IMG/VR virus record: IMGVR_UViG_2974778606_000001
Span: 32,001 to 96,000 of that record
Reading direction: 5' to 3' (one strand)
Origin: a virus
Lineage: Duplodnaviria; Caudoviricetes
DNA: 64,000 bases
Of the stretch, positions 52,996 through 62,293 are shown piece after piece. The translations under genes and the position numbers were made by a program. Under the pieces are notes generated by a model that was not told the origin of the DNA, searched no databases, and saw only the letters and a program-made list of their open reading frames with translations. Positions within the stretch are counted from its first letter, which is position 1, and each line of letters starts with the position of its first letter.

Positions 52996-53072
52996 GGGTT
53001 TGATTGGTATGACGTTAGTGAAAGCCGACAATGGACCGCTAACCGCAGAGGGTTCGAATCCCTCCAAATCCA
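52996..53072 (+). ncRNA. Mini tmRNA-like RNA (tRNA-like domain only)
   Basis: GGGTTTG/CAAATCC acceptor with G3:U70 and A73; stemless D region; 7-bp helix; canonical T-arm. Confidence 0.6.
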
Positions 53073-53252
53073 CGTTGGAAGGTGTTGAGGTGAGAGAAAA
53101 GTTGGTCACTCAGTATCTCTGCTCATTGTGTAAGGTCTAACCAACCATCACACCAGGCACGAATCTGGCCCTTCCGTAGACTTGATGATAAAGACCCCTA
53201 AGCTGATATTCCATATCAGCCGGACACTTGGCGGTGACGCCTTTCATCATAT

Positions 53253-53865: not shown

Positions 53866-53937
53866 GGTCCTTTAGCTGAGATAGATTAGCGATAGCCTGA
53901 AAAGCTTTAGAGGTCGGTGCGATACCGTCAGGGACCA
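53866..53937 (+). tRNA. tRNA-Phe(GAA), T-loop TGCGATA
   Basis: Loop CTGAAAA; GGTCCTT/AGGGACC. Confidence 0.82.
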
Positions 53938-54143: not shown

Positions 54144-54218
54144 GCCCCAGTATTGGCCCGGCCTTCTAAGCCAGAGGCGCATAATGGAAAGATGCAGGTT
54201 CGAATCCTGTCTGGGGTG
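54144..54218 (+). tRNA. D-armless tRNA-Arg(TCT)-like RNA
   Basis: GCCCCAG/CTGGGGT acceptor, loop CTTCTAA, intact T-arm, no D-arm. Confidence 0.55.
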
Positions 54219-62221: not shown

Positions 62222-62293
62222 GGTGGCTATAGCATAAAAGTAATGTTCAAGGCTGTGAACCTTGAGAAGAGGGGGCGGTACCCTCTAGTCACC
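62222..62293 (+). tRNA. tRNA-His(GTG), G-1:C73, aberrant T-loop
   Basis: CAAGG-CTGTGAA-CCTTG; T-loop GGCGGTA. Confidence 0.8.

What the first reader, a model, noticed from the sequence alone, without database searches (positions are those of the whole stretch)
52996..53072. 77-nt mini-tmRNA: alanine-identity tRNA-like domain with no mRNA domain
Seen: acceptor GGGTTTG/CAAATCC with G3:U70 and A73; a stemless D region ATTGGTATGAC; a 7-bp helix GTTAGTG/CGCTAAC closed by a 16-nt loop; a perfect T-arm. Known: this is the layout of the tmRNA tRNA-like domain that binds SmpB, and tagless tmRNAs occur in some mitochondria. Inference: it could titrate SmpB, rescue ribosomes without tagging, or block degradation of phage proteins.
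Basis: partly seen in the sequence, partly recalled or inferred. Interest (0 to 1): 0.85.

Follow-up and report, generated by a model that had tools for sequence, protein, structure and literature searches.

The report
Tag-less mini-tmRNA gene in phage
This 77-base stretch is a real, conserved, unannotated RNA gene of a Streptomyces phage that keeps only the alanine-accepting tRNA-like end of the bacterial ribosome-rescue RNA (tmRNA); the type is already known from mycobacteriophage DS6A, and it probably interferes with or short-circuits ribosome rescue and protein tagging in the infected cell.

Summary
52996-53072(+) folds into a 7-bp acceptor with G3.U70 and A73, a stemless GG-bearing D-loop, a long helix abutting a perfect T-arm, and no tag frame. 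Two corrections: the helix is 11 bp, not 7, and the "16-nt loop" is a structured cap (AAAG bulge, 3-bp stem, ACAA tetraloop).

It is under selection. About 80 related Streptomyces phage genomes carry it unannotated. 12 of 23 pairs covary. G3.U70 and A73 are invariant in 25 distinct copies with nine different acceptor stems.

It belongs to a large phage family of TLD-only mini-tmRNAs: at least 120 viral contigs, which ARAGORN did not call. The one published example is mycobacteriophage DS6A, and a similar molecule inhibited tmRNA in E. coli. This scan has already found the same element in sister phages, and the family elsewhere.

Three points are specific to this copy. The phage also encodes a full tmRNA (tag ANSKFAFALAA) 12 kb downstream. 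It has no SmpB. In this lineage the nucleotides that SmpB grips on a canonical TLD have become covarying Watson-Crick pairs, so SmpB binding is uncertain.

Verdict: a new member of a known kind. Its function (competitor or tag-less rescuer in trans-translation) is inferred, not shown.

The parts
52996..53002 (+). Acceptor stem, 5' strand GGGUUUG (nt 1-7); G3 at 52998 forms the G3.U70 wobble
   Evidence: sequence; pairs 1-7 with 71-77 are 100% paired in 12 copies, pairs 4 and 5 covary, and G3.U70 is 12/12; 25 distinct copies are all 7/7 paired with G.U at 3:70.
53003..53009 (+). Stemless D-loop analogue AUUGGUA (nt 8-14) with invariant GG (53006-53007)
   Evidence: GG is invariant and the rest is variable. 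One search aligns it to the tmRNA D-loop GGaUUCGAC with one deletion.
53010..53020 (+). Long helix (P2a-like), 5' strand UGACGUUAGUG (nt 15-25)
   Evidence: helix 2 has 11 pairs, 9 of them with changes on both sides. A17.G50 is a conserved non-standard pair, and C18/C49 is a mismatch in this copy.
53021..53024 (+). AAAG bulge on the 5' side of the cap (nt 26-29)
   Evidence: Invariant in the window's sub-family. The commonest form in the loop-independent family is AAAG or AAAA.
53025..53034 (+). Cap hairpin: CCG (30-32), tetraloop ACAA (33-36), UGG (37-39)
   Evidence: The MFE pairs 30-31 with 38-39; the family shows CCG-CACG-CGG, CCA-CAAG-UGG, CCG-UAUA-CGG and CCC-GCAA-GGG, so the third pair covaries.
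53035..53036 (+). Unpaired AC on the 3' side of the cap (nt 40-41)
   Evidence: A is invariant and the second base is A, C or G.
53037..53047 (+). Long helix, 3' strand CGCUAACCGCA (nt 42-52), directly abutting the T stem
   Evidence: C51 and A52 take the place of the tmRNA 'GGAC' A334/C335 positions (alignment).
53048..53064 (+). T-arm GAGGG-UUCGAAU-CCCUC (nt 53-69)
   Evidence: helix 3 is 100% paired, and pair 55:69 changes A-U to U-A in two copies.
53065..53071 (+). Acceptor stem, 3' strand CAAAUCC (nt 70-76); U70 at 53069
53072..53073 (+). Discriminator A73 and C74; CCA is not encoded
   Evidence: A73 is present in all 25 copies and C74 in 24; 31 of 33 tRNAs in the window also have C after the base that my register search took as discriminator, and by that count only 3 encode CCA (the register is off in a few tRNAs).

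Best explanation
The stretch is a gene for a tag-less, 'TLD-only' derivative of tmRNA, of the kind first seen in mycobacteriophage DS6A.

Shown: it has the tmRNA tRNA-like-domain architecture, it is conserved with compensatory changes, it keeps the alanine identity set, and it has no reading frame.

Inferred: it is transcribed with the surrounding tRNA array. It is cut out by RNase P and 3' trimming and completed with CCA like its neighbours. Host AlaRS charges it with alanine through G3.U70/A73, and EF-Tu binds it through its acceptor/T helix. It then acts on the host trans-translation system in one of two ways. It may compete with tmRNA for SmpB, EF-Tu or stalled ribosomes. Or it may donate its alanine to a stalled nascent chain without supplying a tag message, so that ribosomes are engaged without the proteolysis tag being added.
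For: Architecture and family: the tmRNA model RF00023 is the best Rfam match, global, at 21.6/30.1 bits. DS6A's published TLD-only tmRNA scores 43.2 bits, also below the cut-off.

Covariation: 12/23 pairs change on both sides and 0/500 shuffles reach the observed values.

Alanine identity: G3.U70 + A73 is invariant in 25 distinct copies with 9 different acceptor sequences, and in nearly all of 87 loop-independent relatives.

Gradation to textbook TLDs: relatives with the same cap carry GGUUUCGAC...GGAC.

Family link: model R1, built only from the window's sub-family, hits DS6A at 38.0 bits. It hits 75 of the 79 loop-independent mini-TLDs end to end at 30.8-59.6 bits and a 76th at 27.2; the 7 other hits in the same 688 kb, at places outside those I extracted, reach at most 29.4 bits.

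Conservation: about 80 phage records hold it, with no feature annotated on it.

No tag frame: the frame from GCC at nt 29 has no stop (sequence).

Shared 3' context with true tRNAs.

Precedent for function: a similar TLD-only molecule strongly inhibited tmRNA in E. coli (Mao et al. 2009, as cited in PMC4131195 and PMC11915505).

In several divergent phages it lies among the tRNA-Ala genes.
Against: There are no expression, processing or charging data.

Scores on the curated tmRNA model are below the gathering threshold, and ordinary tRNAs reach 17-21 bits on it.

In this lineage the SmpB contact positions are remodelled. The G19 equivalent (G16) pairs with C51 and is A16-U51 in sister phages, and the U17 equivalent (U15) pairs with A52. 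G19C abolishes SmpB binding in E. coli (PMC8363625). The phage's own full tmRNA keeps the canonical GGUUUCGAC...GGAC.

The phage carries a full, tag-encoding tmRNA, which sits oddly with a simple 'block trans-translation' role.

Mao et al. reportedly saw inhibition whether or not the RNA was chargeable, so a pure SmpB sponge would not explain the strict conservation of G3.U70.
Confidence: 0.6

Rival explanations
1. SmpB-independent alanyl-RNA. In this tRNA-array-borne actinophage lineage the mini-tmRNA has lost the canonical SmpB pocket. It works through its invariant cap (AAAG-CCG-ACAA-UGG-A) with another phage or host partner. It might be an alanine-charged decoy for AlaRS or EF-Tu, or an alanine donor outside normal decoding.
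For: Positions equivalent to G19/A334 and U17/C335 are covarying Watson-Crick pairs, and some copies are fully paired there (AGUC/GACU in L024 and L036). The cap is invariant in this sub-family while it varies in the wider family. The full tmRNA of the same phage keeps the SmpB motif. G3.U70 is strictly kept.
Against: Sub-family members with the same cap still have the canonical GAC...GGAC (L048, L050, L053, L054; Karimacvirus copies keep GAC...GGA). This argues for one shared function. A17.G50, the A20.G333 equivalent, is retained in 10 of 12 copies. No candidate partner gene is linked to the element. The cap's invariance among the divergent copies is partly an artefact of using it as search bait.
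Confidence: 0.2
2. Processing punctuation. It is a tRNA-like fold kept only as an RNase P / 3'-end cleavage signal that releases the neighbouring tRNAs or the small ORF downstream from a polycistronic transcript.
For: It lies within a dense tRNA array with no terminator nearby. It shares the discriminator+C context of the tRNAs. A conserved 16-codon ORF with a Shine-Dalgarno-like GGAAGGUG starts 18 nt downstream.
Against: A cleavage signal needs neither G3.U70 nor A73, nor an invariant cap, yet these are the most conserved features. In NootNoot the small-ORF module precedes the element, so the two are not a fixed unit. Most members of the wider family stand alone, without tRNAs.
Confidence: 0.07
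3. Decoy for a host tRNA-targeting defence. It is a tRNA-shaped RNA that soaks up a host nuclease or sensor aimed at tRNAs or tmRNA.
For: Phage tRNA arrays are often discussed as counter-measures to tRNA-cleaving defences (general knowledge). The window holds several other non-canonical tRNA-like RNAs (earlier notes; not tested here).
Against: It has no anticodon loop, the usual target of such nucleases. No specific evidence was found here.
Confidence: 0.05
4. Decaying relic of a tmRNA or tRNA-Ala gene, with no function.
For: It is not detected by the standard finders, and the single-sequence folding z-score is only -1.7.
Against: It is conserved in about 80 genomes across two genera and in distant metagenomic phages, with compensatory changes in all three helices. 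The neighbouring tRNA-Ala genes are ordinary cloverleaves with no similarity in the D or anticodon arms.
Confidence: 0.03

Closest known systems
'TLD only' (CDS-less) tmRNA of Mycobacterium phage DS6A (tmRNA Website tmID 11587; Mao et al. 2009 as cited in PMC4131195 and PMC11915505); located here at JN698994 28478-28560
   Same: It is phage-encoded, about 80 nt, with an acceptor carrying G3.U70 and A73, a stemless D-loop, a helix abutting the T-arm, and no tag frame. It has the same cap plan (GAAAA-CCG-CACG-CGG-UAC against AAAG-CCG-ACAA-UGG-AC). It also scores below the Rfam tmRNA threshold (43.2 bits). It is the best non-family hit of my model (38.0 bits).
   Different: DS6A keeps a near-canonical UCGAC...GCAC core and stands alone, with no tRNA annotated in the part of the record I read. 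The window copy sits in a tRNA array of 33 or more genes, coexists with a full-length tmRNA, and has Watson-Crick pairs where the SmpB-contact nucleotides lie.
Standard one-piece tmRNA (SsrA, Rfam RF00023), tRNA-like domain
   Same: G1-C72, G2-C71, G3.U70 and A73; a D-loop with GG; the T-loop UUCGAAU; and P2a next to the T stem with an A.G pair (A17.G50 = A20.G333).
   Different: It has no pseudoknots, no resume codon, no tag frame and no stop. The D-loop is 3 nt shorter. G19.A334 is replaced by G16-C51. The score is 21.6-30.1 bits against a cut-off of 47.
Mitochondrial tmRNAs without a tag frame (jakobids, oomycetes; Rfam RF02544) and the ~65-bp plastid forms of Mallomonadaceae (PMC11915505)
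   Same: They are natural tmRNA derivatives reduced to the tRNA-like part.
   Different: They are organellar, usually permuted two-piece genes that co-occur with a dedicated SmpB. Here the gene is in the standard order, lies in a virus, and the virus has no SmpB.
tRNA-Ala
   Same: It has the alanine identity set and the T-arm, and in several divergent phages the gene lies among tRNA-Ala genes.
   Different: It has no D stem, no anticodon stem-loop and no anticodon. The tRNA-Ala genes of the same phages are normal cloverleaves.

Membership tests
tmRNA tRNA-like domain (TLD) | 7-bp acceptor stem with G3.U70 wobble and discriminator A73 (AlaRS identity) | tested here: met
   sequence. 12/12, 25/25 distinct copies, and nearly all of 87 relatives.
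tmRNA tRNA-like domain (TLD) | T-arm with tRNA-like T-loop, and D-loop without a stem but with the GG that meets the T-loop | tested here: met
   GAGGG-UUCGAAU-CCCUC and AUUGGUA, with GG invariant.
tmRNA tRNA-like domain (TLD) | Conserved core UUCGAC...GGAC (G19.A334 and A20.G333 pairs; SmpB contacts at G19, and the pocket of A15/U17/A334) | tested here: not met
   The window has UAUGAC...CGCA, giving G16-C51 Watson-Crick, U15-A52 Watson-Crick and only A17.G50 retained. Sister phages have A16-U51. The motif is met in other members of the same sub-family (L048, L050, L053, L054). Contacts are taken from PMC8363625.
tmRNA tRNA-like domain (TLD) | Helix P2a adjoining the T stem in place of the anticodon/variable region | tested here: met
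   An 11-bp helix with 0-nt spacer; 9 of 11 pairs change on both sides.
Standard tmRNA (RF00023), full function | mRNA-like domain: resume codon, tag reading frame ending in a stop, and pseudoknots | tested here: not met
   Only 16 nt lie between the helix strands. Neither of the two frames examined (from GCC at nt 29 and from AUG at nt 36) is a conserved tag frame. The Rfam alignment deletes 306 model positions.
Standard tmRNA (RF00023), full function | Score at or above Rfam's gathering threshold (47 bits) | tested here: not met
   21.6 bits and 30.1 bits. The phage's real tmRNA scores 90.8 bits.
TLD-only (CDS-less) phage tmRNA, DS6A type | Complete TLD plus a short capped P2 helix, about 75-85 nt, in standard gene order, phage-borne | tested here: met
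   DS6A; R1 hits DS6A at 38.0 bits; the large family with the same plan.
TLD-only (CDS-less) phage tmRNA, DS6A type | Binds SmpB / inhibits trans-translation | not testable with these tools
   Reported only for an E. coli TLD-like construct (Mao et al. 2009, via PMC4131195). That paper is not held.
tRNA (RF00005) | Cloverleaf with D stem, anticodon stem and 7-nt anticodon loop | tested here: not met
   No call by ARAGORN with default, intron or mitochondrial settings. The forced call at -ps80, tRNA-His(atg), has a poor fold. In Rfam clan competition tmRNA outscores the other clan models.

The most novel reading that the evidence does not exclude
In the tRNA-array-borne actinophage lineage to which this window belongs, the mini-tmRNA has given up the canonical SmpB grip while keeping alanine charging and freezing its cap sequence. 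On this reading it no longer works as an SmpB sponge. It works through a different partner, as an alanine-charged effector that the phage runs in parallel with its own full, SmpB-dependent tmRNA.
Probability: 0.15. Interest if true: 0.75.

Novelty: new member of a known kind. Interest (0 to 1): 0.45.

Why it matters
Trans-translation is the main ribosome-rescue and quality-control pathway of bacteria and a drug target. A natural RNA of under 80 nt that engages it without tagging would show how phages tune the fate of stalled ribosomes and truncated proteins. That is especially relevant for a 50% G+C phage translating in a host that the literature puts above 70% G+C (PMC12509530).

Practically, the gene is missing from the annotation of about 80 deposited Streptomyces phage genomes, and ARAGORN did not call it. 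The held literature names one phage example (DS6A), and the 2025 tmRNA database lists only 9 'standard, no CDS' sequences. Yet a simple pattern finds at least 120 in viral contigs.

The window copy adds a natural experiment. One genome holds a full tmRNA with the SmpB motif and a mini version without it.

Tried and rejected
- ARAGORN with default, intron (-i), mitochondrial (-mt) and relaxed tmRNA settings found nothing. At -ps80 it gave tRNA-His(atg) with a poor fold, which I rejected.
- Expression: no RNA holder is listed among public runs, and the laid metagenome contigs only show related phages.
- I looked for a pairing target of the cap. There is no complement in the phage genome beyond chance, and pairing to the phage tmRNA is weaker than for shuffled loops.
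- A host (Streptomyces) tmRNA could not be fetched, because a virus record has no relatives or handle.
- Mao et al. 2009 is not held. The supplements of PMC11915505 that are held as text list no phage entries.
- Bacterial genomes: the cap+T-arm pattern hit one MAG locus without a T-arm or acceptor. That matches my rough chance estimate of about one hit, so I treat it as chance.
- attP/integrase origin for the wider family: recurrent neighbours are capsid, portal, helicase-like and endonuclease VII genes, with no integrase.
- Tag or mini-ORF readings of the cap: the frame from GCC (nt 29) has no stop. AUG(36-38)-GAC-CGC-UAA has an in-frame stop in the Streptomyces-phage copies and some others, but not in six other distinct copies, so I judge it coincidental.
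- Phage-encoded SmpB or a CCA-adding enzyme: no Pfam match in six frames.
- A MAFFT alignment of the wide family was too scrambled at the 5' end to model, so I used the structure-guided search instead.

Full report
WHAT IS THERE. The window is bases 32001-96000 of a 132,885-bp Streptomyces phage with direct terminal repeats. It belongs to the tRNA-rich group whose deposited relatives are classed in Stanwilliamsviridae, genera Samistivirus and Karimacvirus. ARAGORN finds 33 tRNA genes in the window and Rfam a few more, but neither calls anything at 52996-53072.

The acceptor is GGGUUUG/CAAAUCC with G3.U70, followed by A73 and then C. Eleven bases follow the acceptor without a D stem. The helix is GUUAGUG/CGCUAAC. 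The T-arm is a perfect GAGGG-UUCGAAU-CCCUC.

IS IT REAL? The folding energy of the single sequence is unremarkable (z = -1.7). The case rests on comparison.

- The element is present in about 80 deposited Streptomyces phage genomes, and no feature is annotated on the element itself. It lies between tRNA-Val(tac) and tRNA-Leu(tag).
- Searching viral and metagenome contigs for its cap plus the T-arm gave further, much more divergent copies.
- On 12 distinct copies the proposed structure is 94.6% paired, against 54% or less for slid partners. 12 of 23 pairs change on both sides, and no shuffle out of 500 reaches any observed measure.
It has 11 pairs (nt 15-25 with 42-52) and runs right up to the T stem.

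WHAT IS IT? The best Rfam family is tmRNA (RF00023). The match is global with the central 306 positions deleted, at 21.6 bits in one search and 30.1 in another, below the 47-bit cut-off. Ordinary tRNAs of the array reach 17-21 bits on the same model, so this score alone is weak. Three further results make the assignment firm.

1. Members of the same sub-family, with the identical cap, carry the textbook tmRNA core GG(U/C)UUCGAC...GGAC next to the T-arm (L048, L050, L053, L054). The Karimacvirus copies keep GAC...GGA.
2. The literature already describes one such RNA. [quoted passage not shown] 2009; also PMC11915505, which lists only 9 'standard, no CDS' sequences in 97,179). I located it at JN698994 28478-28560. 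It also scores below the threshold (43.2 bits). It is the best hit of my covariance model R1 outside the family (38.0 bits, aligned end to end, against 30.7 or less for tRNAs).
They hold 87 distinct sequences of about 75-82 nt, nearly all with a 7/7 acceptor, G3.U70 and A73. R1 was built only from the window's sub-family. It recovers 75 of the 79 sequences tested end to end at 30.8-59.6 bits and a 76th at 27.2. The 7 remaining hits in those 688 kb lie outside the places I had extracted and reach at most 29.4 bits.

So the element is a member of a large phage family of mini-tmRNAs. ARAGORN calls none of them as such. 61 of the 79 loci have no tRNA in the fetched stretch. Their recurrent neighbours are capsid, portal, helicase-like and endonuclease VII genes, not integrases.

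THE '16-nt LOOP'. Across the wide family the region between the helix strands follows one plan: an A-rich bulge, a 3-bp stem, a tetraloop, and one or two unpaired bases. The commonest form is AAAG-CCG-CACG-CGG-AA, with variants such as CCA-CAAG-UGG and CCC-GCAA-GGG in which the third pair covaries. DS6A has GAAAA-CCG-CACG-CGG-UAC. The window has AAAG-CCG-ACAA-UGG-AC. The cap is therefore structured and homologous. Its near-invariance in the window's sub-family is real among the isolate phages, but among the metagenomic copies it was partly imposed by my search bait. I found no pairing target for it in the phage.

WHAT IS SPECIAL HERE.

(a) The phage also has a genuine 271-nt tmRNA about 12 kb downstream, at genome 96972-97242, just outside the window. 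It scores 90.8 bits and ARAGORN reads the tag as ANSKFAFALAA*. A 340-kb metagenomic phage likewise has both a mini and a full tmRNA.

(b) The phage has no SmpB, so any SmpB-dependent step would use the host protein.

(c) Cryo-EM work shows that SmpB Trp122 inserts into a pocket made by A15, U17 and A334, and that G19 packs on SmpB, with G19C abolishing binding (PMC8363625). In the window copy the equivalents are U15, G16, C51 and A52. These form Watson-Crick pairs that covary: U-A/A-U/G-C at 15:52 and G-C/A-U at 16:51. Only A17.G50, the A20.G333 equivalent, is retained. The full tmRNA of the same phage keeps GGUUUCGAC...GGAC. This is an internal control showing that the mini RNA is under different constraints at exactly the SmpB interface.

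(d) In several divergent phages the gene sits among the tRNA-Ala genes of arrays ordered by amino acid. That fits alanine acceptance. Those tRNA-Ala genes are ordinary cloverleaves and are not its source.

HOW IT PROBABLY WORKS. Shown: the architecture, the conservation, the alanine identity set, and the absence of a message.

Inferred: the element is co-transcribed with the array. Promoter-like sites lie upstream and no terminator lies nearby. It is matured like its neighbours, since it shares their discriminator+C ends and CCA is mostly not encoded. AlaRS then charges it and EF-Tu binds it.

The strict retention of G3.U70 argues that charging matters. This points beyond a passive SmpB sponge, towards an RNA that reaches the ribosome or at least competes as alanyl-RNA. 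My preferred reading is a competitor or tag-less participant in trans-translation (confidence about 0.6, including the identity claim).

The main rival is an SmpB-independent role through the cap, suggested by the remodelled core (0.2). A pure processing signal, a nuclease decoy and a dead relic are less likely, and the last is contradicted by the covariation.

NOVELTY AND EARLIER NOTES. The kind has been known since 2009 (DS6A). This scan has already followed up the same 77-nt element in sister phages (e1-5865311, e1-4047455) and the wider family elsewhere (e1-5844304, e1-3265722), with the same conclusion. I reached that conclusion independently before reading them.

I therefore class it as a new member of a known kind. 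What this report adds is threefold: the refined structure of the cap, the co-residence with a full tmRNA that retains the SmpB motif, and the covarying Watson-Crick replacement of the SmpB-contact nucleotides in this lineage.

Noticed in passing
window 53077-53170: A conserved 16-codon ORF (GTG 53090 to TAA 53140, giving V/M-REKLVTQYLCSLCKV) follows a Shine-Dalgarno-like GGAAGGTG. Sister phages start it with ATG and show a synonymous change and an S-to-L change. A hairpin (CCAGG...CTGG) follows it, and its stem changes compensatorily in relatives. This module follows the mini-tmRNA here and in Anedea, but in NootNoot it sits directly after tRNA-Val, before the element.
   Followed up: partly
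genome 96972-97242 (+), about 970 bases beyond the window's end; L004:1501-1771: A full-length phage tmRNA (90.8 bits; ARAGORN reads the tag as ANSKFAFALAA*) with the canonical GGUUUCGAC...GGAC core. It is presumably the 'one tmRNA' reported for this phage cluster.
   Followed up: partly
window 53866-53937, 54144-54218, 62223-62293: Rfam calls three further tRNA-like genes that ARAGORN misses.
   Followed up: no
L053:150-566(-) and L056:623-978(+): ARAGORN makes spurious tmRNA calls here, with nonsense tags. Each spans several tRNA genes and overlaps the mini-tmRNA, and the L056 call ends exactly at the mini-tmRNA's 3' end. This is a possible source of wrong 'tmRNA' annotations in phage arrays.
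   Followed up: partly
L045:3292-3366(+); L024:8207-8353(-); L049:9376-9454(+): The divergent phage tRNA arrays contain a tRNA with a stop-codon anticodon (tta), and several tRNA-like genes for which ARAGORN reports 2- or 4-base anticodons.
   Followed up: no
window 53031-53042: AUG-GAC-CGC-UAA lies across the cap and the 3' strand of the helix. The in-frame stop (UAA/UGA/UAG) recurs in the Streptomyces phage copies and some others, but is absent in six other distinct copies. It is probably a by-product of the pairing constraints.
   Followed up: partly
window 39475-63492: 31 of 33 tRNA genes have a C straight after the base that my register search took as discriminator, and by that count only 3 encode CCA (the register is off in a few tRNAs). 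No CCA-adding enzyme (Pfam PolyA_pol) was found in the phage, so 3' completion would depend on the host.
   Followed up: partly
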